Below, one piece after another: positions 5,157 to 25,828 of a stretch of DNA of 64,000 bases. The notes under the pieces are model-generated. The model was not told the origin of the DNA and ran no database searches. It worked only from the letters and a program-made list of their open reading frames with translations. The position numbers and the translations under genes are program-made. The stretch covers positions 3,683 to 67,682 of the IMG/VR virus record IMGVR_UViG_3300005253_000655. One strand, given 5' to 3'. The DNA is from a virus. How positions within the stretch are numbered: position 1 is the stretch's first letter; every line of letters begins with the position of its first letter.

Positions 5157-5174
5157 ATTTATATCCTTCTTTTA

Positions 5175-5196: not shown

Positions 5197-5220
5197 ATAC
5201 TATTATTAAAAGTTTAGAGA

Positions 5221-6222: not shown

Positions 6223-6339
6223 TTGTTATTTCTCCTTTAGGATAGTTAGCCCCTGGCAGGCGAGGAAAGAGACAAGAACAATTGTTATTACTCCGTCTTG
6301 TCTCGTACTCGCCTGCCAGGATACTAGGTTAAATTGTTT

Positions 6340-7665: not shown

Positions 7666-7676
7666 TTTCTTTCTCC

Positions 7677-8696
7677 TTACATACCTTCATCAACGTTACT
7701 GGCAATCATCTCAAGCAGTTCTTTCTTACCTGCGTCGAACACATCTTCGACACTCGCATTGGGATCTGTCTTAGGCGTCTTGACCGACGTTACATCGGTG
7801 CCTACAGACTTTCCCATCGGGGTAATCTTTGACTGCCCTTTGGCATAACTGTCAATAGCTTCTTGTTTTATATTGTTTACGAATTCCTGGAACTTAGAAA
7901 CACTTCCGCTTGCCATTTTCTTGACATCGCCAATTTTCTCGATGTCAACTTCATTGGCAGGATTGTTGACTCCCAGTAACAAGGACATCATGGCTTTCTC
8001 TGTGTCGCTTGCACCTTCAACATTGTCAACCACATCTACGATGGTGGAGTTGTAATTGTCAAGAGCACGCATGTTGTCCTGTTGCTCTTGTCGCGCCAAG
8101 TCTTCCTGCGTATTACTATTCTGCAGGTCCAAATTGCGCTTCTCCAACCTATCAATTGTTTCTTCCGAGGTTTCGCCTTCTCTTGTTTTTTGTTCGTCTT
8201 GCGTAGCCCAGTAATCCTTGATTTCTTTCAACTGCTTGGATTCTGCAACCAGCTCATTCGCGTCCTTGTCACCTAACAACTGCTTTAATGACTGTCCGGT
8301 TTCAAGGGCCTCAGATAAATCTTCAGCAGATTCGTAGCCATGTTTAGCTAAAAGTTCTGTGAGGTTCTTTTCTGCAGCTCTTGCGGCCAGCCATTTCGGG
8401 TCTTGGTCGTAAGGTTTTTCGTCTGTGTTGTCGGTAGGGGAATCCGACTTTTGCCCCTTGTCTTCGGTTTTAACTGCGTCGCTGTCCTCGGCGGGTAACT
8501 CGTCACCAGTTTTCCCGTCTTCAGCGGCGCTTTTGGTATCATCGACAACGACTGTATCTTCAGTTGTTCCGTTGTCTACAAAAATTCCATCGGACCCTTC
8601 TAAGCTATCAACTATTTCGCTGGAGTCCAGGGATGTATTCGTATTGTCGCCTTCTGTCACATTGCCTGCCATAAAATCGTCATAAAAGTCTGCCAT
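7677..8696 (-). CDS. Capsid scaffolding protein
   Basis: Very acidic N-terminus, coiled coil, position between portal and capsid. Confidence 0.7.
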   Translation of the reverse strand: MADFYDDFMAGNVTEGDNTNTSLDSSEIVDSLEGSDGIFVDNGTTEDTVVVDDTKSAAEDGKTGDELPAEDSDAVKTEDKGQKSDSPTDNTDEKPYDQDPKWLAARAAEKNLTELLAKHGYESAEDLSEALETGQSLKQLLGDKDANELVAESKQLKEIKDYWATQDEQKTREGETSEETIDRLEKRNLDLQNSNTQEDLARQEQQDNMRALDNYNSTIVDVVDNVEGASDTEKAMMSLLLGVNNPANEVDIEKIGDVKKMASGSVSKFQEFVNNIKQEAIDSYAKGQSKITPMGKSVGTDVTSVKTPKTDPNASVEDVFDAGKKELLEMIASNVDEGM

Positions 8697-8761
8697 TTGT
8701 TCTCTCCTTTTTCACTAGCCTAAGTACACGTACAGTAGGATAGTGATCACTTTAATGATGT

Positions 8762-9184
8762 TTAGTATATTTTCCCGTGAGGGTTGCTTGGCATGCTCGG
8801 GTTTCCGTCACTGCCTGCGGCAATACCCATTCCGTCCCCAGAGGATTTCTTTCCCTTCATGGCGTCTTTCATTGTCTTTTTCTTACCCTTGCCCATTTCG
8901 AGATAGATGTCGGTAATCTGCATGGACACGTTCTCGTCCATGTGGTTACCCATACTCTCGGACATGCTGAGCCTTTCCACTTTGGCTGTGGCCTGCAGCA
9001 TGATTTCTCCGCCGACTTTGAAGTCCTCAGCTTTGTAACCGAGTTTCTTGAGCGAGTCGTAATTGAGACTGATGGAAAGACCATAAGGATACTTGTCATA
9101 TTCCGTTATCTTATCCGGCATCATATCGCTTTTGGCTTTCTTAGGGCTTTTCTTCATACTCGTCATTTTATAATACATAGGCAT
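8762..9184 (-). CDS. Capsid staple (Gp10-like) protein
   Basis: YPYGLSISL..LKKLG...VG..IMLQATAKV....MQITD motif. Confidence 0.6.
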   Translation of the reverse strand: MPMYYKMTSMKKSPKKAKSDMMPDKITEYDKYPYGLSISLNYDSLKKLGYKAEDFKVGGEIMLQATAKVERLSMSESMGNHMDENVSMQITDIYLEMGKGKKKTMKDAMKGKKSSGDGMGIAAGSDGNPSMPSNPHGKIY

Positions 9185-9198
9185 TGTCGAATTCTCCT

Positions 9199-9366
9199 TT
9201 ACCTCTTGTTTTGTCGCATATTTTCACGGTATCCACGGACACCCATAAGTGCGCTACTGACCTTCTTAGGTGCTTTGGTCACGCTGCCACTTCTTCCGCG
9301 TACGTTTTTCTTTATCATCTTCCACGCTTTAGTGGCAAGATCCAAGAGTTCATTTTTCTCAGGCAT
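9199..9366 (-). CDS. Small basic protein (55 aa)
   Basis: Manual translation MPEKNELLDLATKAWKMIKK...; start overlaps the portal stop. Confidence 0.45.
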   Translation of the reverse strand: MPEKNELLDLATKAWKMIKKNVRGRSGSVTKAPKKVSSALMGVRGYRENMRQNKR

Positions 9367-11522
9367 TACGCTACTCCTCCTCCCCCACCTGTTCCGAGCC
9401 CTTCGGGTATACCTTCAGGGCCAATGGACGGCCCAGGCTCTGTAGGTAGATCCTCTTCGCTGAGGCCAGGCTGAGGGCTCATTGCTTCGGCTTCTGCCGC
9501 TATTCCTTGCTCCAGCCGCATTTGATCCCGCAACTGTTCTTGGACCTGGATCTTCATCGCTTGCTCGTGCATGTCCCTGTGCGCTATGGCGTAGGTCTGT
9601 CTCTCCTCGGAGAATTTCAAGAACTCACGACTAAATATCAAAACATCCAACACCTGCATATGCACCGGGTGGTTGTCGAGCCGGAAGACAGGATCGAAGG
9701 AATCGGGGAACATAAGCATGTCCTCGCCGTCCTCATCCTGTACAACGGTTCCGTCAGCATCCTTTAGAGGCATGTTGGGTAGGGCGATATTTGTAACATT
9801 CCCTGCCGCAATTAAGCTGTTCTCGTACTCGGCCCTGTCCCTATGGATGTTCTCCACTTCAGGGAACCCGCTCATGCCCATTCGGCGAAGTAACTCTCTC
9901 CGGATCTCAGGATGCTCAGACATCTCCCCCCAAAATCCTTGCTCTATCAAGGTCATGAGGAACTGGTTACGTCCGGCATTGGTGGTTGAAGATCCGCTAT
10001 CCAGTTCCAACTTGACATCTGTGTTGTTGCGAAGGTCCGCCCCTTTGAAATTCCTAATGAGGATCTCATTCCCTTCACCTGGAATCTTGATAAGCTGTGT
10101 AACCTTGGTTATATCCTGTACAATTATCAACCGCTTCTTCTGCACCCTGTTCCAGGCGCGGTAAAAGCGCTTAATGTCCGGGGTATGGGACTGCTCGGCG
10201 GTCTCCCGTAGTATGTCCACCATGACACCGGATGCACCGGACCCAGGTGTTTGCCCCCGGAGCACGTTCTTAGGATCTCCTGCAGCTTCCTGAGCGACTT
10301 CCTTGTGGATTTTACGCTCATCCAGAATCTGCGAGGGATACGGGGTGCCAGGCTGCACTTCAGGTTTAGCGCCGCCTGCTGATCTATGATTATACTCCAG
10401 CGCCAGCAAAGCCTGACCTCTTGCTGAGATCCTCTTCAGTGAGAGAGCTGCAGGGGTCAGTACCCACGGACGGCCCAGGGAACGTCGATTGGTACTCATT
10501 GCCTGGTCAATCTCATTCACAGTGTTCTGAGGGCTTATTAGATCATCGACACCGCCAGTGCCCCAAAAGGAGCCCGGAGTGTTGTTGAACACAAAATGAG
10601 TAAGCGTGTAATACCAGGAGCCGTCTTTGGCCACGGGTATAGGCATTTCGGCTTTGTTTACAATGACTTGATCTCCCACGGTCACGGTGTAACGCCCCTT
10701 GGGATACTCCTTGGTGGGCTTGAATTCCATCTCTTTATACACCACCAGTTGCAAACTGTTGATTTCCAGGTTGGAGGTGTCGAATCCCCTACCTTTCCAA
10801 GGGCTTACATTACTGACCAGGGTCATGAGTTGTTTCTGGTATTCTACCTCGGCAAGACTTTCCGTGCCCTTCAACTCTATATCGTGTTTGGCCTCTACCC
10901 AAGCCTTCGACTTGAGGGATTTTATACCTATGTAAGCCTTATCCCGCAATAACAAGCCCAGGGAGTCCACTTCCACATTAAAAGGAATAACAACTTCAAT
11001 AGCGCACTCGGGAGGGGCAGGGATTATTTCGCCAGCATTTCCGATAACGTATTTTCCGGGGTCATTGTCAGGAAACACACGTACAAAGGCGTTACCACAA
11101 ATGGTACGCCAAAACTCCGTCAGTTCCTTTATGTCCTCGGCTTCATTATCATTTATCGTGTCGAGCCAGCGTATAACCAGCTCGGCCAATTTGGCTGCAT
11201 CCTTGTCAGACTGCTCTCGGCTGTTGGGCCATACCGTGGTGGCGAAATTCTTATTCGTAGTTAAAGCTACAGTGCTTTTGACATAATCCCTCACCATATT
11301 GCTGACAGGCGTGGGTATGTTCACGTTGATCTCGGAGCGCCTTCCAAATGTGTTCCGGGACTCGAACCAGGATAACCACTGTTCACCTAAGTAATACAGT
11401 ATGTTACGGAACCAGGTGCGCTCAAGGATAGTACGTACAGGGTCCACGAACGGTTTAAATACATCGTTCACGTCCAGCAATATAGCCGAATCCGTTGGTT
11501 TATGACTAGGGGAATATTTCAT
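9366..11522 (-). CDS. Portal protein
   Basis: 718 aa; YYLGEQW, DKDAAKLAE, DLISPQ..N, SG motifs; position after TerL. Confidence 0.85.
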   Translation of the reverse strand: MKYSPSHKPTDSAILLDVNDVFKPFVDPVRTILERTWFRNILYYLGEQWLSWFESRNTFGRRSEINVNIPTPVSNMVRDYVKSTVALTTNKNFATTVWPNSREQSDKDAAKLAELVIRWLDTINDNEAEDIKELTEFWRTICGNAFVRVFPDNDPGKYVIGNAGEIIPAPPECAIEVVIPFNVEVDSLGLLLRDKAYIGIKSLKSKAWVEAKHDIELKGTESLAEVEYQKQLMTLVSNVSPWKGRGFDTSNLEINSLQLVVYKEMEFKPTKEYPKGRYTVTVGDQVIVNKAEMPIPVAKDGSWYYTLTHFVFNNTPGSFWGTGGVDDLISPQNTVNEIDQAMSTNRRSLGRPWVLTPAALSLKRISARGQALLALEYNHRSAGGAKPEVQPGTPYPSQILDERKIHKEVAQEAAGDPKNVLRGQTPGSGASGVMVDILRETAEQSHTPDIKRFYRAWNRVQKKRLIIVQDITKVTQLIKIPGEGNEILIRNFKGADLRNNTDVKLELDSGSSTTNAGRNQFLMTLIEQGFWGEMSEHPEIRRELLRRMGMSGFPEVENIHRDRAEYENSLIAAGNVTNIALPNMPLKDADGTVVQDEDGEDMLMFPDSFDPVFRLDNHPVHMQVLDVLIFSREFLKFSEERQTYAIAHRDMHEQAMKIQVQEQLRDQMRLEQGIAAEAEAMSPQPGLSEEDLPTEPGPSIGPEGIPEGLGTGGGGGVA

Positions 11523-11530
11523 ATCTTCCT

Positions 11531-11788
11531 TTATGTGACGGGATAAACACCAGGAGTAGGCTCCTCATTAAAGGACTCAAGAGCCAGGGCCTTTTCTGCC
11601 AAAGCGGATTCGAGCTTCATATCCTTGCGCTCGTCTTTGGGTGAGTGATGAAGTTCCTTTACGTTGTTGGCAATAACAGCCTGTATTAACTTATCTTCTC
11701 GGGCGGAAGATCGCCTGCTTGCTACGATGTTGTTTAACCAAAGGACAACGTTAAGTCCCAGGAGTACAAGTATAATAATATCAGTCAT
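11531..11788 (-). CDS. Small protein with N-terminal membrane anchor
   Basis: Hydrophobic N-terminus IIILVLLGLNVVLWL. Confidence 0.55.
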   Translation of the reverse strand: MTDIIILVLLGLNVVLWLNNIVASRRSSAREDKLIQAVIANNVKELHHSPKDERKDMKLESALAEKALALESFNEEPTPGVYPVT

Positions 11789-12290
11789 CTAAAGCTCCTT
11801 TCATGAGGCAAAGACCTTGTTCCTTTTTATCGTGAACCCAGGCAGTGCTCCTATCAAAATGATATGCGATCTCAGCGAGGGTATCCCCATGAAAATAGTA
11901 GCGGTCCATAATGACGGCTGTCACCGTATCCACCTTCTCGGGGATAATCTCTCGCAATTGAGATAGAAGTACAACTTGTTCAATCTTCGCAACCGTTTCC
12001 TCGTCGTCTACAATATTGCCGCCCGTGTGGTGAACCACTTGCGGAATGAAAGGATCTTTCTTAAACTGATATCGGGTGAGCGGGGCCAGTCGTCGGAAGG
12101 AATCGAGCAGAGACAGGTACATATTGTGCCCTTTCAACCAGCCTTCCATGCAATCTTGCACGTAATCCTCTATCGTGACTGTGGGCATGAAATGGGTTTG
12201 ATGGAATACTCTAGCTTCTTTTCTGGCTCTGACATATGCTATTTCAATTTCCTTTTCGGTTAGATCCTTTATTTCTTCAGAATTAGTCAT
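11781..12290 (-). CDS. Sigma-70-family-like factor (region 2 and region 4 HTH)
   Basis: EDYVQD..EGW; YYFHGDTLAEIAYHFDRSTAWV helix-turn-helix; ATG 12290 with RBS GGAGG. Confidence 0.7.
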   Translation of the reverse strand: MTNSEEIKDLTEKEIEIAYVRARKEARVFHQTHFMPTVTIEDYVQDCMEGWLKGHNMYLSLLDSFRRLAPLTRYQFKKDPFIPQVVHHTGGNIVDDEETVAKIEQVVLLSQLREIIPEKVDTVTAVIMDRYYFHGDTLAEIAYHFDRSTAWVHDKKEQGLCLMKGALDD

Positions 12291-13848
12291 CGAAAAATAC
12301 CTCCTCCATGTTTGTGTTTTCCTCTTCTTCATCTTGCAGGTCGGATATGATCTTGTCAATTTCAAGTGCTGCTACCATAGAAGCACTGTCGAGAGCCGCC
12401 ATTTTCTCTTTCTTGACTTGTTCATCGTGGAATTTCTTCAGGGCATCTTCATCCGCACCCTGGGGTCTGTCCATGCAGACGTGACAGGCATCGTCAAAGG
12501 GGTGAAGCTCCTGTCCTTTCTCCAAATACTCCCCAGTTAACTCGTCTATACACAAATCGGGTATAATGCGGATGAATTGCTTACAAGTGTTGTAAACCAC
12601 CAGCATTGGCTTTTCCTTGGGATCGTCGGGGATACGCAGTCTGTTGCGAAACTGTCGTATTTTCAGTACCCTATTGGCATCTCCAGCGAAAAGCTCCAGC
12701 TTGGGATGGACAGCCTTAAACTCGTCCATCGTGGAATCCCCCTGCCCACCCCCCTTGTAATCCGGCTTCTTATTCTGGCAGGTAGGATCGGCCAACCTCC
12801 TGATATCTCTGTCCCAAATGCCCATTTCTTTTTCGCGCTGCATGACACCTTCCGCCACTTCAGCGTCCGTGAGTCGTAAGCCCACATTGGTCGTGACCTT
12901 GTCCCATCCATACCACTCGGCAAAGCGGTAGATCCGGTCGTCATTGTCAACCCACCACCAGCCGATGGAGAAGGGGGCACCATAGCCCCAGTCATATGTC
13001 ATGACAATGGGGGCATGCTCCGGGATGGGCCACACGGGTTCGACAATATGTCGCTCAGTGAAGTTGAAGGCTTGGCCCACGAATACATCCCAACGGCCAT
13101 CCAGCCATGCAGCCACGAGCGCAGGGTCGTTGATGGATCTCAGCCTCGCCTCGTACAACGGGTCCATATCCTTCAACACCAGGTTATCGGATAAAACAGA
13201 CTTGATGAAAACGCGAGTGAAAACAACCTCTGTCCCGTCGAATAGTGTGTGAAATATACGGTTTACCTGCCCTTCACCCACAGGTGCCTCGCCGCCATCA
13301 CATTCTGGAATGAACATCACCTTGATTTGGGATGCTCCAGGTCCACCTGGATTGCCGGAAAGTACCATTTGACATTTAATCCCATGCGGAGATCTAAGGC
13401 ACCCTTTGAGACGATCCATCAATTGGCCGATAAACGGGATCGACGGGGCCTCGTCGAGCGAAATTTCCACATACTGATGGCCCTGGAAATCATCGGCCTG
13501 AATAATAGCGTTGATCGCGGCCAAGGATACATTGGCACCATTGGCGAAACGAATATAGTTGATCTGATTCTCCCCGCCGACTCTCTCAGCCGGAAGACCC
13601 GCCATGATAAGCTCGTCCCAACGACGCCGTAGCTCCTTGAAATCCTTATACTTACGCCGAACCATCAGGCCATTCCACTGGATACCGTGGCGCAACGCCC
13701 CTTTGACTTGCCGCCCGATCAGGAGATCCGACTTGCCCCCGCCACGTGTCCCGCCGATGAAGATCTCGTCCACTGGACAGGTATAGGCCTCTGCCTGGGG
13801 TCCAGGCTGTGGGTACCAGTAATACTCTGACACTTTCTGGGTAATCAT
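12283..13848 (-). CDS. terL: Terminase large subunit
   Basis: PQPGPQ, Walker A GGTRGGGKS, Walker B ISLDE, SGNPGG, nuclease DWG and HPFDD. Confidence 0.95.
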   Translation of the reverse strand: MITQKVSEYYWYPQPGPQAEAYTCPVDEIFIGGTRGGGKSDLLIGRQVKGALRHGIQWNGLMVRRKYKDFKELRRRWDELIMAGLPAERVGGENQINYIRFANGANVSLAAINAIIQADDFQGHQYVEISLDEAPSIPFIGQLMDRLKGCLRSPHGIKCQMVLSGNPGGPGASQIKVMFIPECDGGEAPVGEGQVNRIFHTLFDGTEVVFTRVFIKSVLSDNLVLKDMDPLYEARLRSINDPALVAAWLDGRWDVFVGQAFNFTERHIVEPVWPIPEHAPIVMTYDWGYGAPFSIGWWWVDNDDRIYRFAEWYGWDKVTTNVGLRLTDAEVAEGVMQREKEMGIWDRDIRRLADPTCQNKKPDYKGGGQGDSTMDEFKAVHPKLELFAGDANRVLKIRQFRNRLRIPDDPKEKPMLVVYNTCKQFIRIIPDLCIDELTGEYLEKGQELHPFDDACHVCMDRPQGADEDALKKFHDEQVKKEKMAALDSASMVAALEIDKIISDLQDEEEENTNMEEVFFDD

Positions 13849-13849
13849 A

Positions 13850-14089
13850 TCACTCCTTCACGGCGAATTGAATCCACCGGCTGGTCATCTCAATAGCCAG
13901 CTCCACGCGCTCTTCTGGGGTTAAACGTTCCATTAACCAGGTCTCTTCTGGGTAATCTTTGCCCCGGAATACCATTTCCCCTGTGCAATCCTCATAAAGA
14001 TTCCCGTTTGCATCTATCCCAATTACGCCACAATATGGTTCCCAGGACCGACCAGAGTCAAACTGAAGATGATCTTTGAATGTTTTCAT
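13850..14089 (-). CDS. Hypothetical protein
   Basis: 79 aa with RBS GGAGG. Confidence 0.5.
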   Translation of the reverse strand: MKTFKDHLQFDSGRSWEPYCGVIGIDANGNLYEDCTGEMVFRGKDYPEETWLMERLTPEERVELAIEMTSRWIQFAVKE

Positions 14090-14181
14090 TGTATTACCTC
14101 CCCTTTAAACGAAAATCCACCAATTAAGGCCACTGTATACTGCAGCCCCAGTGATATATAAAACCATCTTAACTCTATCGC

Positions 14182-14640
14182 TCATTTCTTTTTCACCCTA
14201 GGAACCCTGCCCATCGTATGGAGCAGATCCCTGATTGACTTGTTATCCACCAGTACCTGATACAGCCCCTCGCTTACGGCGTCCAGAGCGTCCTCGTGAT
14301 CTATGAAGATATGGTGGCTGGACGTCTCGTCGATTGCGTGGAGCAGCTCATGCAGGAAGCAAATGAATGCGTAGGACTTGCTGATATACCTACCATCATG
14401 TGAAATACAGCCGATTCGGATCTGATTGGTCGCCTGGTCGTAATCCGCAATGGCTCCAGCGCCCTCCGGGAAGTCATAAGGGTGTATTATCTTTACCCTA
14501 TGTCCGCCAACCTTTAGGCTTTTTGGTAGATCCAATATCCTTTTAGGCTTCTTGTGCTTCTTGGCCAACGGCCTAGAAGCCGAAGATTTATCTGCAATTT
14601 CCTCTAATGCACTTTCCACATCTTCGATTGTCGCGCTCAT
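14182..14640 (-). CDS. Zincin-like metallopeptidase domain protein (HExxH)
   Basis: FLHELLHA...E; start ATG 14640 with RBS AAGGAGG (the longer 299-aa call runs into the repeat array). Confidence 0.65.
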   Translation of the reverse strand: MSATIEDVESALEEIADKSSASRPLAKKHKKPKRILDLPKSLKVGGHRVKIIHPYDFPEGAGAIADYDQATNQIRIGCISHDGRYISKSYAFICFLHELLHAIDETSSHHIFIDHEDALDAVSEGLYQVLVDNKSIRDLLHTMGRVPRVKKK

Positions 14641-14867
14641 TGTTTCCTCCTTAATTTCCGACCGATCTAACCAATCAGTCATTGACTGGACCCGTCTGTG
14701 GGTCAATTTTCCCCAAAAAATCTCAAAAAATTCAGCTCTGTTTTGGTACACTGGTACCATATGATGTATTTGACGACCCGCATCCGGGGTGGGGGGTACC
14801 CCCGGGGGGTGGGTGGCAGCGTTTAATGACGCGTCACGTAATACCACAGTGTAGTAGTTGTAGCAAC

Positions 14868-15381
14868 TGGCATGGTTGTTGCATGCGTGTACCACAGTGT
14901 GGTATGTGGCACGGTTGTTGCAGGGGGATAGTGGCATGATGCTTGCAGTAGTCATTTGGCATGATACGTGCATACAGGCCCACGTGACCAGTGACGGAAG
15001 CACGCGCGGTAGCATTGGCATGGTACTTGCAGGCAGTGTTGGCATGGTTGTTGCATGAGTAGTACTTGAAGCCATTGGCATGACTCTTGCATACCTTTAT
15101 TGGCACAGTACTTGCATATGAATAGTGGCATGGTACTTGCAGTAGTCACTTGGCACACTCCTTGCATGTACCACACGTACACGCGTGTTCCTCACACTTG
15201 GCTTGCGCACACGCTTGGCATGGTACTTGCATGTAATCCATTGGCACGATCTTTGCATGACACGTTGTGGCACGGCTTTTGCAGGAGAACTTTAGCGGTA
15301 ACACACACACTGTGTTGGCACGCTCCTTGCATACAAAGTTGACATAGTCCTTTGGTCTGTTGTATTGGCATGGTCCTTGCA
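14868..15381 (+). promoter_or_regulatory. Array of 15 sigma-54 (RpoN) -24/-12 consensus sites
   Basis: TGGCAY-R-N4-TTGCA (GG-N10-GC) starting at 14868, 14907, 14932, 14957, 15016, 15040, 15076, 15101, 15126, 15151, 15216, 15242, 15268, 15316, 15366. Confidence 0.85.
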
Positions 15382-15390
15382 TGTTGTCCG

Positions 15391-15819
15391 TCATTTCTTA
15401 CCCTCCTCTAGTAATCGTTGCGTTCGTGCTTCACCTACCTGCTTCTCCCAGTCCTCCAAACTCTCCGGCTCAGGTGGCAACACACCAACAACAGTCAAAG
15501 GGTTACCCTCCTGTCCTCCCACATTGACATCCACAGCAGTCCCATAACCCCTGTTCTTGGCATACGCTGCCAGGTAAGTCTTAATCGCCTGGAAGTCCAG
15601 CACATTAATCAAGTCCATCAACTTCCCTTCCACATGATCAATCAGCCCCTCCTTCACATCATGACACATACCCTTAAAATCCTCATCCTCAGCCCGCCAC
15701 AGGTAGTAACAGGCTCTACTTATATTCATAGCCTTACACGTATTCGCCACATGTCCTTGATTTGCTTCAAGTAATATGATAAACAGGTCCTTTTTGTCTT
15801 GCACCGTTAGCTCGTTCAT
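15391..15819 (-). CDS. terS: Terminase small subunit
   Basis: N-terminal HTH GHVANTCKAMNISRACYYLW..EDEDF; AIK.YL...KNRGY; upstream of terL. Confidence 0.75.
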   Translation of the reverse strand: MNELTVQDKKDLFIILLEANQGHVANTCKAMNISRACYYLWRAEDEDFKGMCHDVKEGLIDHVEGKLMDLINVLDFQAIKTYLAAYAKNRGYGTAVDVNVGGQEGNPLTVVGVLPPEPESLEDWEKQVGEARTQRLLEEGKK

Positions 15820-15933
15820 ACTGCTGCTGCCTCCTAAAAGTATACGATATCACTCATTCCTTAGAGATAGTTCAATGTTAAGCCACTTCATGTTGAGATT
15901 GTTTAACCACTTACAATCCTCAACCCTTACAAT

Positions 15934-15961
15934 AAGATAACCACTAATTGCCAGAAGTCAA
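15934..15961 (-). promoter_or_regulatory. Candidate sigma-70 promoter of terS/late operon
   Basis: TTGACT-N16-TATCTT. Confidence 0.4.
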
Positions 15962-15968
15962 CGCTCAA

Positions 15969-16054
15969 TGGCACATTTCTTGCAGGGAATATGGGCCGGA
16001 GGATGAATAGTCAATGATTGCGGTGCGTTGCATCACGTTGGCATGGAGCTTGCA
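15969..16054 (+). promoter_or_regulatory. Two further sigma-54 consensus sites
   Basis: TGGCACATTTCTTGCA at 15969 and TGGCATGGAGCTTGCA at 16039. Confidence 0.7.
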
Positions 16055-16385
16055 GGCGGACATATTGCCCGGGTAACTGTCCAGGTAATGGCATCATGAA
16101 TGCCTCAAATGCCTCATGTGTCGTGAACCATGTCACAAACGTGTCACAAGTGTAATCATTTCACTCATTAATGCACACGCACGCGTTCTACATACCCACG
16201 AGAAATCAAGGGTCGGTGACTGGTGACACTGTGACCAGTGACATGGTGACAAGATGTCATTGACGTGAATGTGGCATGTGTCAAGTCAAGCCTTGATGTG
16301 GCAGAATGTGGAGCGGTGAACCTCACGGTAAGTGGTTGACATTACATGGTATTCACGATAGTTATAAATAAAGCTTAAGTTTCCC

Positions 16386-16414
16386 TTGACAAGTACCGAA
16401 TAGATAATTAACAT
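16386..16414 (+). promoter_or_regulatory. Sigma-70 early promoter
   Basis: TTGACA-N17-TAACAT at the start of the plus-strand region. Confidence 0.65.
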
Positions 16415-16443
16415 TAGGACAGTTGAAACAGGAAAGGGGGCAC

Positions 16444-17108
16444 GCACAGCACGACATACAAATAGGTGGATGACTGGTTCCAGGTACTTCCCGCCTTATA
16501 ACGACTCCGGTCAGATAGTAGGGAAGGACGGGCATGAGGCATGTTGGGCCTCAGAGACGGACCTGCAGATCTTAGGGAGAAACAGGGTGCGGTCCTGGTG
16601 AAATGAACCGCAGATTACAATCATCTGTTATCATAACAGAGAGGGAAGTCGTCGAAAAAAGGGTTGTGTATTGGCTAGTAAGTGCTTTGACAGACTGTCC
16701 ATTACCCTTACACTTAAGAGTTCGTTGCTCGCCTTGCATCAATTATACAATGATGCAAACTTCCCTTTCTGGTATGCTAATAGGTGATTGTAGCTTCGCT
16801 TGGAAGTTACAAGCAGATTATTACACGTGATGGGGATAGACAGACTATAAATTAAGTCTATTGCCAATGGAGCTAGCATTTACACTTCCGACTGAGACCG
16901 GGAGAGGCTATGGGGTTCAACTCCCCTGTGTATATCTCAGATCTGTTTGTACTTCCAAGTGAGGCTTGTGTTAAATACTTACCGGGGAGAGGTTACAATG
17001 GGAAGTGGCCAGCGTTAGGATAGCTTCCAAAACGTAAAGACTGCATGACATGCACCCGGAGACGTTCGGCTGTATTGGCAGCTACCGTCAACCTCCCCAC
17101 GGTAAGTA
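16444..17108 (+). ncRNA. Cluster of three candidate structured ncRNAs
   Basis: No credible ORF; closing stems at 16444-16669, 16792-16966 and 16976-17108. Confidence 0.5.
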
Positions 17109-17135
17109 TTTAAACGGATAAAGGAGGACAACATC

Positions 17136-17279
17136 ATGTACGGTTTAAAAGAATACGAGAGAATGAATAGAGAGGAAAAAGAGGAGCACGACAAGAAAGT
17201 GCGTAATGCTCGGTTCAATTGGAAGACCAAAATAAGGATAACTGTTAAACTTCTATTGAATAAGCTTTGGGGAGGCTAA
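17136..17279 (+). CDS. Small early protein (47 aa)
   Basis: RBS AAGGAGG; MYGLKEYERMNREE... Confidence 0.5.
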   Translation: MYGLKEYERMNREEKEEHDKKVRNARFNWKTKIRITVKLLLNKLWGG

Positions 17280-17283
17280 TAAC

Positions 17284-17628
17284 ATGAATTATTTAGTCAA
17301 GGCAGTATGGAAGAAAGGCGACGGACATGCATGGGTAGTGGAGGACTTGAAATCAACCCCTGATGCAGAGGGTATTATGCATGAGGACAGTGTATTATAT
17401 ACGATAGGAATGTATAATGTTTGCGACACGGTAAGGGGAGTCAAAGACGCTATACACGCAGCATTGTATGATGAACGCCAGGGCAATGGCAACCTTAAAG
17501 AGGGGGATGAATTTCACGTGCGTGCGGCAACAGTCAATAAATATCTTGGCTGTGATAGTTGGAAGGGTAGACTGAGAATTCCTGCAATGAAATTTAAGTG
17601 CGTAGGGGTTCACGTAACCAAAGTGTAA
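17284..17628 (+). CDS. Hypothetical early protein
   Basis: 114 aa, RBS GGAGG. Confidence 0.6.
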   Translation: MNYLVKAVWKKGDGHAWVVEDLKSTPDAEGIMHEDSVLYTIGMYNVCDTVRGVKDAIHAALYDERQGNGNLKEGDEFHVRAATVNKYLGCDSWKGRLRIPAMKFKCVGVHVTKV

Positions 17629-17641
17629 GGGAGGGGACAAC

Positions 17642-17812
17642 ATGACAAATAGACGAATAGATATCAAGGCAATACTGAATGACCCTCATGCACGACGGGA
17701 ACTGTTCGTAAACACTATCATAGCAGCACAAGCACGGGAAGGTATCACGACGACTCGTGAGCAGGCAGAGAGTGCATATGATCAAGTTCAAAGAGAGAAG
17801 GAGGATAAATAG
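17642..17812 (+). CDS. Small early protein (56 aa)
   Basis: MTNRRIDIKAILNDPHARRELF...; RBS GGAGG. Confidence 0.55.
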   Translation: MTNRRIDIKAILNDPHARRELFVNTIIAAQAREGITTTREQAESAYDQVQREKEDK

Positions 17813-17813
17813 T

Positions 17814-18107
17814 ATGGACACAACAAAGAAAGCTACTGCAAAAGTAGGTGATAGCGTGCAAGGGGATCTTTGGTCTTGGTATGCAACTCTCGGGGAGTCG
17901 GATGGTTTCTCTGACAGTTCTTTTCCTGGTTGCCAGTTTCGTTTAAAAGAACATGGTACTCTTGATAATTATGCTGTCAACATCAAAGTCACAGGAAAAC
18001 CAGTGTGGAGCGGTTTTTCCTATCACAGCCGATGTGTCCTTGAGATTGTCGGGGACGGTGAACCTTCCACATTTTTTGGCGGTCAATTGTATCATAAGGC
18101 AACTTAA
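17814..18107 (+). CDS. Hypothetical early protein
   Basis: RBS AAGGAGG before MDTTKK. Confidence 0.55.
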   Translation: MDTTKKATAKVGDSVQGDLWSWYATLGESDGFSDSSFPGCQFRLKEHGTLDNYAVNIKVTGKPVWSGFSYHSRCVLEIVGDGEPSTFFGGQLYHKAT

Positions 18108-18121
18108 AGGGAGGATGAGAA

Positions 18122-18289
18122 ATGCCTATAATAGATAAGATCTTGAATTTCGAGGCTGGCGAAATGGAAGAAGAGGAGATGGTGGAATTCTTCCAAGAGT
18201 TGATTGACAATGGCATGGCTTGGACCTTGCAGGGTAGCTATGGGAGGATGGCAAGTAGCTTGATTGACGCAGGACATTGCTCTGCATAA
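18122..18289 (+). CDS. Small conserved phage protein
   Basis: E.GE..EEE.VEFFQELIDNGMAWTLQGSYGR.A motif seen in phage early genes. Confidence 0.6.
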   Translation: MPIIDKILNFEAGEMEEEEMVEFFQELIDNGMAWTLQGSYGRMASSLIDAGHCSA

Positions 18290-18356
18290 GCCGAAACTGG
18301 GGAGGGGCATTCCCCAGTCTGTCAAGGATTGATACCTTGGCACTGATGAGGCAATC
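18290..18356 (+). ncRNA. Type II hammerhead ribozyme 1
   Basis: GCC-GAAA-[CTGGGGA/TCCCCAG]-TC^-[TGTCAAGG/CCTTGGCA]-CTGATGA-GGC; GATTG pairs with 3' CAATC. Confidence 0.9.
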
Positions 18357-18378
18357 AAAATAACAGGGAGGAAAAACC

Positions 18379-18639
18379 ATGAACTTTACCTAGGAGGAAA
18401 TTGCAAAGATTACTGATGACCTGGAAGGTATCGCCAATGTTAGGGCCATAAACAAGATTTATAGACGACAAGATTGCTCTAACCTATGGCCTGTAGCAGG
18501 AAAATTCAATGTCATAAACAGAGCAATCCGACACGCACAAAAATGGCAGAGAGAATCGGGAGTGTCTTTGCAAGGATTAGAGTATTGTTATTTTTTAAGC
18601 AATGAAATAAGGAGTATTGTCAACAACCCAAATATTTAA
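18379..18639 (+). pseudogene. 86-codon ORF interrupted by amber codon at position 5
   Basis: RBS GGAGG, ATG AAC TTT ACC TAG GAG..., frame open to TAA 18639. Confidence 0.5.
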
Positions 18640-19234
18640 GACAAGGAGGGAACAGCATGAAAAAGATATTAGGGATAATTTGGCTTGTCAGTAGTGTTAT
18701 ATTGCTGTTAGGTTTTATATTTACAGTGTAATACCTAGTGCCTGTCCCCAAAACAATGGGACCTTCACACCGGGCGGGAGAGTAACGGACATAAGGCAGG
18801 ACATAGTCAAGGGGTGGATACGAGGCCACTGTGGGCCGACAACTGATTTCAAACTATGCTTGGGCTCCTCCTGACACCTTGCAGCGTGCTCCCGCCAGAC
18901 ACTAATAAATAATGGAGGGAATACAATGAAAAAGAAACATAAGGTCTCGAATTTTGTGGTGAACTGCTGCATGTTCATATTAGTTTTATGTGGTATTGTT
19001 ATCGTAGTAGGAATGTTACAAGCAATATTTTAAAGGGGGACATCATGATAGACGACTTCAAAAGGTTCAAGATTTTCGAGGACCATGACGAGTTGGGCGC
19101 TAAGACCTACGCACTTTACAATGACGAAGTCTTCGTTAGCTCATACCTTCCCGACGACGAGTACATCAAACACTTGCTATTAACTGGGGTCAAGATTCAT
19201 CCTGGCCTAGACTGCTCACCGAAAGGGGTGTGAT

Positions 19235-19456
19235 ATGGAATTTAGAAATATTAAACCTGGAAGGATATTCTACATAGGTAACCGTGCCTTTGCAAAACTT
19301 CGCAAGCCTCATGGGGAAAGGCCTACAGAGGCATGCTGCAAGGGAAGAAGTTGTACTGTGTCTTGGAATGCTACAAATTTTGCCAATGACGTACATATTT
19401 GTCCTTCCACCTGGGTGGAACACACCCAGTATTATTATGAAGAGAAGGAGGACTAA
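19235..19456 (+). CDS. Hypothetical early protein
   Basis: 73 aa; stop abuts hammerhead 2. Confidence 0.5.
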   Translation: MEFRNIKPGRIFYIGNRAFAKLRKPHGERPTEACCKGRSCTVSWNATNFANDVHICPSTWVEHTQYYYEEKED

Positions 19457-19521
19457 GTCGAAACGGGGCGTGAGCCTCGTCTGACCGGGGATGGCTACCT
19501 GGCACTGATGAGACAGGCCAT
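19457..19521 (+). ncRNA. Type II hammerhead ribozyme 2
   Basis: GTC-GAAA-[CGGGGC GTGA GCCTCG]-TC^-[TGACCGGG/CCTGGCA]-CTGATGA-GAC; loop ATGGC pairs with 3' GCCAT. Confidence 0.9.
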
Positions 19522-19713
19522 AAGGAGGGGATATGATGGGAGAGGAGAAGACAGAAAAAGTCATATGTATGTTGTGCGTACACGAATGGCCAACTAACGA
19601 GATTGATGTTAGATCTATTAGTCGTGATGTTTGTACTGGACGTGAAATATTAACTTTTAAGTGCCCGAACTGTCATCGTATAAAACAATCTTTAACTTGG
19701 GAGGGATAAAATC

Positions 19714-20665
19714 ATGTCAAATATACCCATTGAGTCTTTGGAAAACATCAATAATTCTTGCAGGAACATGCTTGACAATCTGGGAGACGTTAGACCTTAT
19801 AGCGTAGATCATGAGGATGTGGAAAACTTCTGTTTGGATCTTGAGGATGACGTAAAATCAATAGAGCATCATATCTCTGTTATCCGGCAAATGAATGACA
19901 AGTATAATAAATAAGGGGGTGAGCACTATGGACATAGAAACCTGGAGGAGGAATTTTTCCGCAGCACCGGCCTACAAGAGATACACATTGTTCCGGGCGC
20001 TGCAAACTCTGAATGAATGGGGACCGTTCCGTAAAGAGTTCGAGCCGGAAGGGCTTGTAAGGTTACAAGAGATTTTTCGGGAGGAGCTGGACTGTAAGGC
20101 TCGGAGCTTCATTTTGAGCAAGGAGGATGATCATGGCTAAACATAGCAACCATTACAGGCTGTGGGACTGGTGCTCACACCATCCAGAGAAGAGAAAAGA
20201 GGACTGGCCGGGATGGGCTAGCGTAGACAAACTAATAAATTCTTGCTTCCTATGCAGGATGGCTAAAGGGGATTGTGACAACTGCCTGGGTACTTGGGGA
20301 CCGGATGACTATGCCTACAGCGATGCAGGAGGTCGTGACACCTGTGAATCTATTTATACTAAGGATGGGTGGAGGTCACACGGCCTTTATACCCTGTGGT
20401 TATTTGCATGGGATAATAAAAATTGGGGGGAGCGAATACGACTTGCACAATTAATACGTGATATCGTAAAGGAGGATTAATCATGAGCAATAAAAAGAGG
20501 GAAAAAGAGAAGGAAAAGCAGGGATGGGAGAAGGAAAAGCTGGAATGGGATTGGGTACAGGAAGAGCTTGAGCAGTTGTGGGAACGTTATGGGAAAAAGT
20601 TCGAGCACCCAATTCAAGCTAAATCCAATTTACATTACATGCTTTCCAACTGCTTGGAAGTTTAG
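19714..20665 (+). CDS. Run of four small early ORFs (19714-19914, ~19928-20140, ~20133-20480, 20483-20665)
   Basis: Tightly packed ORFs each with a purine-rich RBS; no recognisable family. Confidence 0.5.
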
Positions 20666-20766
20666 GCGCAGGGTGAAGAGTAAGACGGGGGAAGGGTGCC
20701 ATTGTCTTGTGGGCAACCAGGGGCAGTGGTTAGCCGCCCTCGCCACTCTGCACAACTGTTGGTAAC

Positions 20767-20910
20767 CATACACGAGGAGGAGGTTGGAGGCATAGCTGCC
20801 TCTCTGAGACGGACGGAGTGCCACAGAACACAGGCTGACGAGTCACAGTGGACGGGCATTACTCTAGGCGGTCGAATTGCACTAGTCTGGTGTGAACCTC
20901 CTCGTGTATG
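20767..20910 (+). ncRNA. Candidate structured RNA with RNase P S-domain-like double T-loop
   Basis: 14-bp perfect closing stem CATACACGAGGAGG/CCTCCTCGTGTATG; AGTGCCACAGAA...AGTGGACGG inside. Confidence 0.5.
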
Positions 20911-20928
20911 TTTATCAGCATAATTAAT

Positions 20929-21009
20929 GGGGTGGAATTGGTTTCGACGGGTGCGAGTCCATCAATCGGGCGCATTCGGAGCGGGGTTCGATCCCCCGCC
21001 ACTCCACCA
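20929..21009 (+). ncRNA. Minimal tmRNA-like RNA (tRNA-like domain only)
   Basis: GGGGTGG...GGTTTCGACGGG 5' end, G3-U70 pair, T-arm CGGGG-TTCGATC-CCCCG, ACCA end; no tag ORF. Confidence 0.8.
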
Positions 21010-21032
21010 AAATTAACTCACAAGGAGGTAGC

Positions 21033-21368
21033 ATGAAGTATAAGTATACAAAGGTAAAACTGCCAAACGGCAAAACAGTGGATAGACATAGATTGATCAT
21101 GGAGGAATATTTGGGACGCCTGCTTGAACCTGAAGAGGAAGTGCATCATTGCAATGAAAATAAAAAAGATGACACGCTTGAGAATCTGGAACTGGTATTG
21201 AAAGTAGTACATAGACAGGAGCACTTCCGCACAGGAATATTCTTGCCTTGTGGCTTTTGTTCAACAGAGGTATATTGTAGTCCAGGAAGAATGCGGCAAT
21301 CAAAACTCAAGATATTCTTTTGCGATAGACACTGTAGGAATAATTATCAAGGGGCAAAAGGTTGGTAA
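21033..21368 (+). CDS. HNH homing endonuclease with C-terminal Zn finger
   Basis: HRLIME..LGR.L.PEEEVHHCNENKKDD..ENL. Confidence 0.85.
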   Translation: MKYKYTKVKLPNGKTVDRHRLIMEEYLGRLLEPEEEVHHCNENKKDDTLENLELVLKVVHRQEHFRTGIFLPCGFCSTEVYCSPGRMRQSKLKIFFCDRHCRNNYQGAKGW

Positions 21369-21386
21369 TCCCCACGCTCCACCATT

Positions 21387-21476
21387 GGAGAGTTGGCCGA
21401 GCCAGGTAAGGCACCAGGTTGCTACCCTGGAATCAAGGTTACACTTGCACAGGTTCAAATCCTGTACTCTCCGCCA
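21387..21476 (+). tRNA. tRNA-Ser(GCT)
   Basis: Cloverleaf with long variable arm, anticodon loop TTGCTAC, G73 + CCA. Confidence 0.9.
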
Positions 21477-21566
21477 TTCAAAGGGATGTAGCTACGAAGG
21501 GCATGCTTTAAGTAGGGTTCGACTCCCTACCATCCAACTCATTTAACCTAAAAAGGAGGAGACAAC

Positions 21567-23067
21567 ATGAACGATTCAACACAGGAGTTGGGGATAAATT
21601 TGACAGGTGTCATCAAGAGTATTGTCCTGGATGTGATACATGAGCAATCCAAAATAAAGGCGGACGTGGAGGAGCTAAGCCGGGCAGGTTCCAAGTGGTC
21701 AACCACAGAGATAAACAAGCTACGGTCAGAGTACGCCACTGCAATCGCAATCATCGCACAGTTGCATTCCCGGTCACCAGGAGGGATTCACTCACAATTG
21801 GCGCACATGGACGACCTACGTTACTAAAAAAGGAGGGAATTGACAATGTACACTGACGGGGAACGTATCCAAAATCTCAAGAAAAAGATCCGAGAAATTG
21901 AATTCGATGTAGAAGTATGTTGGGGAGGATGAGGGACAGTGGCACCGGGTCTCTATGTTTTGGGAATGCACAGAGTCCCCTGTGGACTATTGTGTTTATA
22001 CCAAGTGGGAAGACCCCCTTTCTGACAACTGTATCTACTGTCATCAACCCCATGAAAGGGGATAACAAGGGAGGAATTGACCATGACAAAAATACAGACT
22101 GCAATGCTTACAGGCGCAGGTTTCGGTTTTAGCCTGGGAGTTGCCTGGGCAATTTTTTGTAGATTTATCGTTGATAAAATCATGAACAGAAAGGAGGAAC
22201 AGCATGGAAAAGAAAATGAAATGGATGAGACACCTACCATCCCACATGATCCGCACGGCCCTACATTTTGACCCAGAAATGGTCGTGAGAGTCGTACACT
22301 TCGCACCAAAATACACAGAAGTTCGATTATACTGTACGGATGGCAAGTACGCTCAAGGGATTTCAATCTGTAGCACGCTGGACGAGTGGGACTATAAAAC
22401 AGGTAAATGCCTTGCATTCTCAAGAGCTATTACGGCATTGTTAACAGAAGAGAGGACTGGGCGTATACGCAAGACCGTTACACGGAAGTGGAAGCCTGCA
22501 CAAGACAGGCGCGTCCGGAATGTAGTATACAGGTTCAAGAGTTTCTTTAGGGAATGCAATCTAAGGGGGTACACAACATGAGACACAACGATTACATGGT
22601 CATCAAAAATTGTAAGTTATGCGGCAAGCCTGTCCTGCGCCCTATATTTTGGGCGGGACTGAAGTCGCCTATGACAGGCAAGGCGAGCGTCACACCGACA
22701 TACCCTATGTGCAAACATATCAAAGGCAACAGGAGGTAGGTTATGCGAAAATTAATAATGGGAGACTGGGAATACTCCTGCACTGTCCTGCGGCGCTGTT
22801 TCGTAATCGGAATAGTGCTGATCATCCTGGCAGTGGTAAACAATTGGAGGTGACATGAAATTCAAAATTGAGTTCACTGTGAACGATGCGGATCTTAAGA
22901 GATTGGATAAAAATGTGCTCACACAATCCAGGGGAGGTGAAACATCCTACCAATACATAGTGCGCGGCATTAATTTTTTCCTCGGAAAGATCGGCTTACG
23001 CCACAGCACAATCAGCCTATACACACAAGAGAGTGTGATAAAATCCGCCGAGGAGGTTAAGAGATGA
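21567..23067 (+). CDS. Run of small hypothetical ORFs (21567-21827, 22204-22581, 22855-23067 and shorter ones)
   Basis: Each preceded by GGAGG-type RBS. Confidence 0.5.
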
Positions 23068-23627
23068 TAAAGGAGAAATGGCAACTACAACAAGAGGAGG
23101 AAAAGATACGGGAGAAGTGGGGACTAAAGGACTTCTTAGCCATCGCTATTATCTTAGGGGGTTTTGTCTACTTCCTTTACACGATACAACCGGATTACAA
23201 GAAGGAGTATAAAGAGCATAAGGCTTCCTGGGCATGGACACAAAAGGAAATGAAATCACATGTCGCACTTAAACCTACAGTAGAGCTTATTCCGGGTTCG
23301 GAGTTGTTCCGTAAATACGTTACATTCGTGATACGGAACAAGAAGGAAACTGATACTGTCCCCGTGTCCATACTGCGGGGGCTATCCGGCCAAAGAGGAA
23401 TGTACAGCCCCTTACTGGACCCTCATACAGTATATATCTGCGACGACTGTGGCCTGGACCCTGTAGTCCTAGAGGGTGTCATTGTACATGAAATGGTACA
23501 CTACATTCAGTGGAGCACGGAGGGACGGTGCTTTGATGACCCTTATTCCCCCTGTATGGATTTCCGGGAAATGCAGGGATACGCGATACAGGAAAAATAC
23601 ATAAAGGAGGTGTTGGGGGATGAATAG
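23064..23627 (+). CDS. Membrane-anchored HExxH metallopeptidase-like protein
   Basis: TM FLAIAIILGGFVYFLY; IVHEMVHYIQ...E. Confidence 0.6.
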   Translation: MIKEKWQLQQEEEKIREKWGLKDFLAIAIILGGFVYFLYTIQPDYKKEYKEHKASWAWTQKEMKSHVALKPTVELIPGSELFRKYVTFVIRNKKETDTVPVSILRGLSGQRGMYSPLLDPHTVYICDDCGLDPVVLEGVIVHEMVHYIQWSTEGRCFDDPYSPCMDFREMQGYAIQEKYIKEVLGDE

Positions 23628-25827: not shown

Positions 25828-25828
25828 T

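What the first reader, a model, noticed from the sequence alone, without database searches (positions are those of the whole stretch)
14868..15381. Tandem array of 15 sigma-54 (RpoN) promoter consensus sites: candidate sigma-54 sponge or roadblock
Seen: 15 co-oriented 16-mers with invariant TGGCA and TGCA ends, exact GG-N10-GC spacing and a variable middle (e.g. TGGCACGATCTTTGCA, TGGCACGGCTTTTGCA, TGGCATGGTACTTGCA). Eight of 14 spacings are 24-26 bp and linkers are unrelated, so selection appears to act on the motif rather than on a recent duplication. Known: this is the sigma-54 -24/-12 consensus (TGGCACG-N4-TTGCW), and sigma-54 holoenzyme forms stable closed complexes that cannot fire without an AAA+ enhancer-binding protein; none is recognisable in this window. 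The array lies between terS and terL, antisense to them, with no plus-strand gene to drive. Inference: (a) a DNA decoy that titrates host sigma-54/RNAP as genomes replicate, damping sigma-54 regulons such as Psp, flagella/pili or nitrogen genes; (b) a roadblock or antisense timer gating terL, portal and capsid expression on host state; or (c) a landing pad at the genome end. I know of no description of such an array in a phage.
Basis: partly seen in the sequence, partly recalled or inferred. Interest (0 to 1): 0.95.

Follow-up and report, generated by a model that had tools for sequence, protein, structure and literature searches.

The report
Sigma-54 docking-site array in phage
An uncultured 68-kb phage carries fifteen near-perfect landing sites for the bacterial sigma-54 RNA polymerase packed between two of its DNA-packaging genes, a kind of array common in phages but apparently undescribed, and what it does is still untested.

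Summary
There are 15 co-oriented TGGCAYG-N4-TTGCA sites at 14868-15381 and 2 more at 15969 and 16039. That is 17 matches against 0.81 expected, with none elsewhere in the 67.7-kb genome. Sequence information is confined to the motif; the linkers carry almost none.

The sites most likely bind host sigma-54 RNA polymerase (my odds about 0.8):
- Tandem pairs of this motif occur in at least 120 viral contigs forming 59 sequence groups. A reversed-motif control found 1, and 596 Gb of prokaryote genomes held 30.
- No protein is shared with these loci apart from generic TerL.
- Two relatives carry 3 and 2 single sites. Each has enhancer-like dyads 70-109 nt upstream and a ribosome site plus ATG downstream.

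The array is a lineage-specific insertion. In relatives terS abuts terL, and 0 of 81 relatives has an array, which argues against a packaging site.

The function is unproven. I favour a non-firing sink for sigma-54 polymerase over an antisense promoter bank. No activator gene is present and the host is unknown.

This scan had already noted similar arrays in other phage genomes. Seven literature searches found no description.

The parts
14868..15381 (+). Array of 15 co-oriented sigma-54-type -24/-12 sites (TGGCAYG-N4-TTGCA), base period about 25 bp
15969..15984 (+). Outlying sigma-54-type site in the divergent terS/early control region
16039..16054 (+). Outlying sigma-54-type site facing the early region
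13850..15390 (.). Lineage-specific insertion between terS and terL: the array, a G/C palindrome and two ORFs. In relatives the TerS homologue ends 120-385 nt before TerL
14843..14903 (.). Two dyads ACCACA-N-TGTGGT (14843-14855 and 14891-14903) bracketing the first site. The same dyad occurs at 43528 and 43552, and near the array of phage record G004
14784..14815 (.). G/C-rich overlapping palindromes (four G-runs) just upstream of the array
   Evidence: G/C runs are enriched beside arrays in other phages
14984..14995 (+). GTGACCAGTGAC in an array gap; it recurs at 16216-16242 in the early control region
   Evidence: family D7
15391..15819 (-). Small terminase subunit (HTH). Homologues at 34-41% identity sit next to TerL in relatives
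14182..14643 (-). 153-aa small zincin (invariant HExxH), weakly SprT/Wss1-like, part of the insertion
13850..14089 (-). 79-aa ORF of unknown function, part of the insertion
12283..13848 (-). Large terminase subunit

Best explanation
The 15 sites are genuine high-affinity docking sites for the host's sigma-54 RNA polymerase holoenzyme. They arrived, or were amplified, as part of a 1.5-kb insertion between terS and terL. Phages of this family use single sigma-54 promoters, each with its own upstream enhancer, to drive early gene cassettes. The array has the promoter cores but none of those enhancers, no gene to drive, and sites packed every 25 bp. I therefore infer that it works mainly as a non-firing sink. 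It holds sigma-54 polymerase in closed complexes. As phage genomes multiply, 17 sites per copy draw sigma-54 away from the phage's own two sigma-54 sites at 15969 and 16039 and from host sigma-54 regulons. Any occasional firing would give RNA antisense to terS.
Shown: the motif, its statistics, the insertion, the enhancer-promoter modules in relatives, and the spread in phages.
Inferred: sigma-54 binding (my odds about 0.8) and the sink mechanism (about 0.4).
For: Motif and statistics:
- 17 sites against 0.81 expected, all on one strand, none elsewhere in the genome.
- Information is confined to the motif.
- 12 of 15 sites fit the strict consensus. By my reading, 1 of the 29 intergenic Salmonella sigma-54 sites printed in PMC3844500 does.
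- Site 14907 matches the first 15 nt of the Salmonella rpoH site.

A host factor rather than a phage protein:
A reversed-motif control gave 1, and 596 Gb of prokaryote genomes gave 30.
- The 120 loci form 59 nucleotide-level groups.
- They share no protein with the window apart from TerL, one portal hit and the replication genes of L006.
- phmmer and jackhmmer runs with TerS and the two insertion ORFs returned only the window's own proteins.

Family usage:
- Relative G051 has exactly 3 sites and G052 has 2. All lie on the early-gene strand.
- Each has a ribosome site and ATG 29-75 nt downstream.
- GTGGY-N6-RCCAC dyads lie 70-109 nt upstream and essentially nowhere else in those genomes.

Sink rather than promoter:
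- The array has no dyad of that type.
- The next gene downstream is antisense terS.
- The 25-bp packing puts each predicted transcription start inside the next site.
- Across 59 groups, arrays point with the next gene in about 28 and against it in about 20, and some arrays mix strands.
- No activator AAA+ domain was found in this genome, in 0 of 50 array-bearing records or in 0 of 5 relatives.
Against: - No binding, transcription or titration data exist, and no RNA run was listed.
- The host is unknown, so presence of rpoN is only inferred.
- All 17 sites point toward the early region. Two dyads at the array's upstream edge could be an enhancer, which would favour a promoter bank.
- The same-strand orientation could simply reflect tandem duplication (D4).
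- The ORF calling behind the orientation tally is crude.
- A sink needs site numbers to matter relative to cellular sigma-54, which I could not measure.
- Why a phage that uses sigma-54 promoters would deplete sigma-54 is explained only by a timer model that I inferred.
Confidence: 0.4

Rival explanations
1. Antisense promoter bank. The sites are working enhancer-dependent promoters, fired by a host activator that binds the ACCACA-N-TGTGGT dyads or acts from solution. They make rightward RNA that is antisense to terS and reads on into the early region, tying the early/late balance to host physiology.
For: All 17 sites point toward the plus-strand early genes. Two dyads sit at the upstream edge of the array, and a similar dyad lies 186 nt upstream of the array in record G004. 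Relatives use the same core as real promoters. Sigma-54 transcripts with long leaders and antisense orientation are discussed for E. coli in PMC4591121 (passages).
Against: One promoter would be enough. 25-bp packing puts each start site inside the next site. The family's enhancer dyad is absent. The ACCACA dyad also occurs at 43528 and 43552 with no sigma-54 site nearby, so it may be an ordinary operator. The first early gene is about 1.75 kb away.
Confidence: 0.3
2. Roadblock. Closed complexes on the array stop or slow leftward transcription from terS into terL, portal and capsid genes until sigma-54 is diluted or removed.
For: The array sits inside the terS-terL operon, head-on to it. It is absent from relatives where terS abuts terL.
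Against: In E. coli, single intragenic sigma-54 sites gave no roadblock effect: 3 of 85 genes were down-regulated, p = 0.47 (PMC4591121, passages read). Fifteen sites in a row were not tested there.
Confidence: 0.1
3. Binding repeats for a phage protein (TerS pac/cos recognition, iterons or a partition-like site) that only resemble the sigma-54 consensus.
For: The array abuts terS. TerL lies within 4 kb of arrays in 72 loci, 55 of which may belong to one phage group. In record G004 the array is within 1 kb of the contig end and of the packaging genes. G/C-rich runs accompany arrays.
Against: 0 of 81 TerL relatives has an array, although 16 carry a TerS homologue. Searches with TerS and the two insertion ORFs returned only the window's own proteins among about 150 array-bearing loci. 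The same 12-position motif in 59 unrelated groups is hard to explain by phage-specific proteins. In relatives the motif sits in promoter context.
Confidence: 0.1
4. Functionless expansion of a duplicated promoter core.
For: One three-site block is duplicated at 78% identity.
Against: The linkers have decayed to near-zero information while 15 motif copies stay near-perfect. That pattern implies selection on each copy.
Confidence: 0.05

Closest known systems
Bacterial enhancer-dependent sigma-54 (RpoN) promoters, for example the Salmonella rpoH, rsr, glnA and pspA sites listed in PMC3844500
   Same: Same -24 GG / -12 GC core with exact spacing. Site 14907 equals the first 15 nt of the printed rpoH site. 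Relatives G051 and G052 have the full layout of upstream dyads, core, then ribosome site and ATG.
   Different: There are fifteen cores in a row at 25-bp spacing. None has the family's enhancer dyad or a gene to drive, and the array is antisense inside a packaging operon.
Intragenic and antisense sigma-54 binding sites of E. coli and Salmonella (PMC4591121, PMC3844500; passages read)
   Same: Sigma-54 sites that are not classical promoters, some antisense to genes, with function debated.
   Different: Those are single, weaker sites scattered in a chromosome. Here there is a dense array of near-consensus sites in a phage.
Sigma-54 site arrays noted earlier by this scan in other uncultured phages
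   Same: Tandem or mirror-image near-consensus sites in control regions of unrelated phages. My own scan found at least 120 such contigs.
   Different: This array is the largest I saw: 15 sites against at most 9 in the other 59 groups. It lies inside the terS-terL operon, not ahead of early genes.
6S RNA, a sponge for the sigma-70 holoenzyme (recalled, from no call)
   Same: It would work alike: a nucleic-acid mimic that sequesters one holoenzyme form.
   Different: 6S is an RNA that mimics an open promoter and is host-encoded. This would be phage double-stranded DNA acting on sigma-54. Not tested.
Terminase recognition repeats such as lambda cosB R sites (recalled, from no call)
   Same: Repeated short sites next to terS.
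   Different: The array is not conserved in relatives with homologous TerS. The motif is shared by phages without that TerS.

Membership tests
Sigma-54 (-24/-12) promoter | TGGCAC-N5-TTGCW core with GG and GC exactly ten bases apart | tested here: met
   15 of 15 array sites and both outliers. 12 of 15 fit the strict TGGCAYG-N4-TTGCA.
Sigma-54 (-24/-12) promoter | Enhancer (activator binding dyads) about 80-150 bp upstream | tested here: inconclusive
   The dyad type used by relatives is absent (0 matches). Two different dyads lie at 14843 and 14891. In relatives G051 and G052 the feature is met for 5 of 5 sites.
Sigma-54 (-24/-12) promoter | A co-directional transcription unit downstream | tested here: not met
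   The next gene after the array is terS on the opposite strand. The first plus-strand gene starts near 17136. For the outliers at 15969 and 16039 the early region does lie downstream.
Sigma-54 (-24/-12) promoter | Binding by sigma-54 holoenzyme and activator-dependent initiation | not testable with these tools
   No RNA run was listed. No bench data.
Sigma-54 (-24/-12) promoter | Host encodes rpoN and an activator | not testable with these tools
   The host is unknown. The phage encodes neither. 5 of 5 bacterial genomes with tandem pairs that I tested have the sigma-54 DNA-binding domain, but these are not the host.
Terminase pac/cos recognition repeats | Conserved with the cognate TerS across relatives | tested here: not met
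   0 of 81 relatives has an array. TerS homologues are present in 16 of them and, in the five best hits, end 120-385 nt before TerL.
Replication-origin iterons | Repeats next to an initiator gene and an AT-rich unwinding region | tested here: not met
   The array lies in the packaging module. Neighbours are TerS, a zincin and TerL. GC is 0.476 in the 2-kb window 14001-16000, close to the rest of the record.

The most novel reading that the evidence does not exclude
The array is a DNA sponge that counts genome copies. Each new phage genome adds 17 top-affinity sites, so sigma-54 holoenzyme is progressively soaked up. That would switch off the phage's own sigma-54-driven early transcription and the host's sigma-54 stress regulons at a set replication level. 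A bolder extension: the SprT/Wss1-like zincin encoded in the same insertion is a DNA-dependent protease that clips the trapped sigma-54 or polymerase. The spread of such arrays over dozens of unrelated phage groups would then mark a general, undescribed phage strategy against or through sigma-54.
Probability: 0.25. Interest if true: 0.9.

Novelty: new variant of a known kind. Interest (0 to 1): 0.78.

Why it matters
Sigma-54 transcription is treated as a host stress and nutrient circuit, and phage textbooks do not include it. Near-consensus sigma-54 sites are stacked in many unrelated phages, and relatives of this phage carry complete enhancer-promoter modules. Together these suggest that phages routinely use or capture this polymerase form. 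This window holds the largest and most oddly placed array I saw. It is therefore a good test object for asking whether such arrays fire, block or soak up sigma-54. If they soak it up, it would be the first DNA sponge for a sigma factor.

Tried and rejected
Searches that gave nothing useful:
- Nucleotide searches of cultured phages with the region, with a big-group locus and with the array gave no match or only chance-level short hits.
- The short hits led to single or paired sites in Vibrio phage Ceto and Pseudomonas phage Lana, but no arrays.
- Close relatives carrying the array were not found. The first TerL scans gave 2 viral loci and 1 metagenome locus at 52-53% identity. The profile scan gave 80 loci at 47-65% identity, none with an array.
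- No RNA holder was listed for 13800-17800, so expression could not be examined.
- Rfam found no known RNA in 14600-17135.

Host identification failed:
- Cluster look-up gave only one MAG label on a phage-sized contig.
- A GTA-type holin is at most a weak hint.
- A search for the relatives' dyad-plus-core module in 401 + 401 proteobacterial genomes gave 0 and 2 single hits, which is uninformative.

Other checks:
- Pfam scans of 20 further proteins found no regulator or activator.
- Rejected as tied to the array: the 3,682-aa protein is a polyvalent protein, not an N4-type virion RNA polymerase.
- The long ORF 14182-15081 that would run over part of the array is an artefact of an upstream ATG. 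The PHROG match starts at residue 38 of the 153-aa form, and the 25-bp period is not a multiple of three.
- The paper on Pectobacterium phages (PMC7693777, passages) and the Htm preprint (passages) mention sigma-54-like or activator-like phage proteins but no site arrays.
- Supplementary tables of PMC3844500 and PMC4591121 were not seen and may list further sites.

Full report
WHAT IS THERE. The window is bases 3683-67682 of a 67,682-bp IMG/VR virus record. The record is classed linear and rated 100% complete by CheckV. The phage is tailed. Identified genes:
- TerL at 12283-13848(-), portal at 9366-11522(-) and major head protein at 6340-7665(-).
- A family-A DNA polymerase with a fused uracil-DNA glycosylase and an intein.
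- A 3,682-aa polyvalent protein carrying radical-SAM, ART-PolyVal and LPD23 domains.
Genes at 1-15819 and 26000-64000 run on the minus strand. Small early-type genes at 17136-26000 run on the plus strand.

THE OBSERVATION. At 14868-15381 there are 15 plus-strand 16-mers, TGGCA-N7-TGCA, with two more at 15969 and 16039.
- The total of 17 compares with 0.81 expected.
- There are none on the other strand and none elsewhere in the whole record.
- Twelve of the 15 fit the stricter TGGCAYG-N4-TTGCA.
- Eight of 14 spacings are 24-26 bp, and several larger gaps are near multiples of 25.
- Information content is high only from one base before the motif to two bases after it. It is at most 0.35 bits in the flanking linkers. 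Selection therefore acts on the motif copies.
- One three-site block is duplicated at 78% identity, so the array grew partly by segmental duplication.

IS IT THE SIGMA-54 SITE? The motif matches the conserved positions of experimentally bound sigma-54 sites printed in PMC3844500 (Salmonella) and PMC4591121 (E. coli). I read only the passages shown. Site 14907 equals the first 15 nt of the Salmonella rpoH site. By my reading, only 1 of the 29 intergenic Salmonella sites fits the strict pattern that 12 of 15 array sites fit. The phage sites are therefore unusually close to consensus.

A HOST FACTOR OR A PHAGE PROTEIN?
- The same motif read backwards gave 1 locus.
- 596 Gb of prokaryote genomes gave 30 loci.
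- The 120 viral loci form 59 nucleotide-level groups, one of which holds 55 loci.
- Apart from TerL, one portal hit and the replication genes of L006, they share no protein with the window at E 1e-5.
- phmmer and jackhmmer runs with TerS and the two neighbouring ORFs returned only the window's own proteins among ORFs within 4 kb of arrays.
A 12-position motif shared by unrelated phages is best explained by a conserved host protein, and sigma-54 is the one known to read it.
- None of 50 array-bearing records (13 of them at least 90% complete), none of 5 relatives, and not this genome encodes the activator AAA+ domain PF00158.
- 5 of 5 bacterial genomes with tandem pairs that I tested have the sigma-54 DNA-binding domain.

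THE FAMILY CONTEXT. TerL has many relatives at 47-65% identity, several on contigs of 59-68 kb.
- None of the 81 loci (80 viral, 1 metagenome) has an array.
- TerS homologues at 34-41% identity were found in 16 of them. In the five best hits they end 120-385 nt before TerL.
- In the window, 1,542 nt separate terS from terL.
- The two ORFs in that spacer have no homologue in the relatives.
The array, a G/C-rich palindrome, a 153-aa zincin and a 79-aa ORF therefore form a lineage-specific insertion. This argues against an essential packaging role.

THE MOST INFORMATIVE RESULT. Two complete relatives carry a few single sites.
- G051 has exactly 3 sites and G052 has 2. All lie on the strand of the early genes next to the terS side. 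G053 and G055 have none, and G054 has one weak match.
- Each of the five sites lies in an intergenic gap, with a Shine-Dalgarno sequence and ATG 29-75 nt downstream.
- Upstream there are one or two dyads of the form GTGGY-N6-RCCAC.
- In G051 this dyad occurs at five places only, all 86-109 nt upstream of the three sites. The reversed control gave 0.
- In G052 three dyads lie 70-102 nt upstream of the two sites, plus one one-strand match elsewhere.
This is the textbook enhancer-dependent promoter layout. The family therefore uses host sigma-54 with some activator for early cassettes. By extension the host of this family has sigma-54; that step is inference.

WHAT THE ARRAY DOES. The array lacks the family's dyad.
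- Two different dyads, ACCACA-N-TGTGGT, bracket the first site. The same dyad also stands at 43528 and 43552, where no sigma-54 site is near.
- A similar dyad lies 186 nt upstream of the eight-site array of record G004, a phage sharing replication genes with this one.
- The sites point at antisense terS and then at the early control region. The first early gene is about 1.75 kb away.
- With 25-bp packing, the predicted start of each site falls inside the next site.
- Across the 59 groups, arrays point with the next gene in about 28 cases and against it in about 20. About 11 are antisense to both neighbours, and some arrays mix strands or form back-to-back pairs. My ORF calling for this tally was crude.
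This pattern fits binding for its own sake better than simple promoter function. I therefore favour a non-firing sink for sigma-54 polymerase (0.4) over an antisense promoter bank (0.3).
- A roadblock (0.1) is weakened by the negative result for single intragenic sites in E. coli: 3 of 85 genes, p = 0.47 (PMC4591121).
- A phage-protein binding site (0.1) and neutral expansion (0.05) are less likely, for the reasons given above.
The Salmonella study counts about 70 sigma-54 sites per chromosome. One phage genome would add 17 strong sites, and a replicating pool would add many times the host's own number. The idea that this could serve as a copy-number timer is my inference.

COMPARISON AND NOVELTY. 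The sites belong to the known sigma-54 promoter core by sequence. As promoters they fail the tests of a downstream gene and of the family's enhancer. I therefore file the array as a new variant, not as ordinary promoters. Seven full-text searches found no paper describing sigma-54 site arrays in phages. Earlier notes of this scan report similar arrays in other phage genomes, and my own scan agrees with them independently. Among the loci I examined, this array is the largest: 15 sites against at most 9. It is also the only one I saw inside a terS-terL operon.

LIMITS.
- The host is unknown and no expression data exist.
- Supplements of the two sigma-54 papers were not seen.

Noticed in passing
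L161 (record G051) and L168 (record G052): Complete enhancer-promoter modules in two relatives. One or two GTGGY-N6-RCCAC dyads lie 70-109 nt upstream of each of 5 sigma-54-type sites, often with a G/C hairpin between dyads and core, and a ribosome site plus ATG downstream. The dyads occur essentially nowhere else in those genomes.
   Followed up: yes
window 14843-14903 and 43528-43564; G004 position 42723: The dyad TACCACA-N-TGTGGTA occurs twice at the array edge and twice upstream of ORF 42702-43412. A near-copy lies 186 nt upstream of the sigma-54 array of a phage that shares replication genes. It may be the operator of a shared regulator.
   Followed up: partly
window 14182-14643 (-): A 153-aa protein with an invariant HExxH motif. 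It belongs to a family of about 332 representatives, mostly 100-120 aa, some tandem-doubled. There are weak likenesses to SprT, Wss1 and PBCV P4 (Atlas 0.94-0.95; PDB profile E 0.007-0.6).
   Followed up: partly
59 groups of array-bearing viral loci: Runs of five or more G or C are enriched within 200 bp of arrays: 86 against 31 expected, and 40 of 59 groups against 20.3. The test was not corrected for coding versus non-coding composition.
   Followed up: partly
window 14984-14995, 16216-16242: GTGACCAGTGAC occurs in a gap of the array and twice in the early control region. This hints that the array was copied from that region.
   Followed up: no
L144 and L130 (one 383-kb Chitinophagales MAG contig): About 21 relaxed sigma-54-type sites lie in 8 kb. 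Most are in pairs 26-70 nt apart and about 80-110 nt upstream of small plus-strand ORFs. It looks like a bacterial or prophage cassette array run on doubled sigma-54 promoters.
   Followed up: partly
G004 42650-43080 (L158): Eight sites are arranged as back-to-back (mirror-image) pairs within 1 kb of the contig end. They are preceded by five copies of an ATCGGAAYTCGCAGTTC repeat.
   Followed up: no
Vibrio phage Ceto NC_042094.1 487-749 and 120427-120689; Pseudomonas phage Lana NC_048166.1 81769: Cultured phages with sigma-54-type sites: a divergent pair in each terminal repeat of Ceto, and one perfect intergenic site in Lana. They are possible bench models.
   Followed up: partly
window 18289-18360, 19456-19522, 20929-21009: Rfam finds two type II hammerhead ribozymes in the early operon and an 81-nt match to tmRNA.
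   Followed up: no
window 15820-17135: A 1.3-kb gene-free early control region with sigma-70-like boxes near 16386 and 16687 and long inverted repeats (16616/16759 and 16971/17090). No Rfam family matches it.
   Followed up: no
window 27911-31309 (-), 43915-44451 (-), 45303-45992 (-): A family-A DNA polymerase fused to a uracil-DNA glycosylase domain and split by an HNH intein; a GTA-type three-helix holin; and a ClpP-like protease.
   Followed up: no
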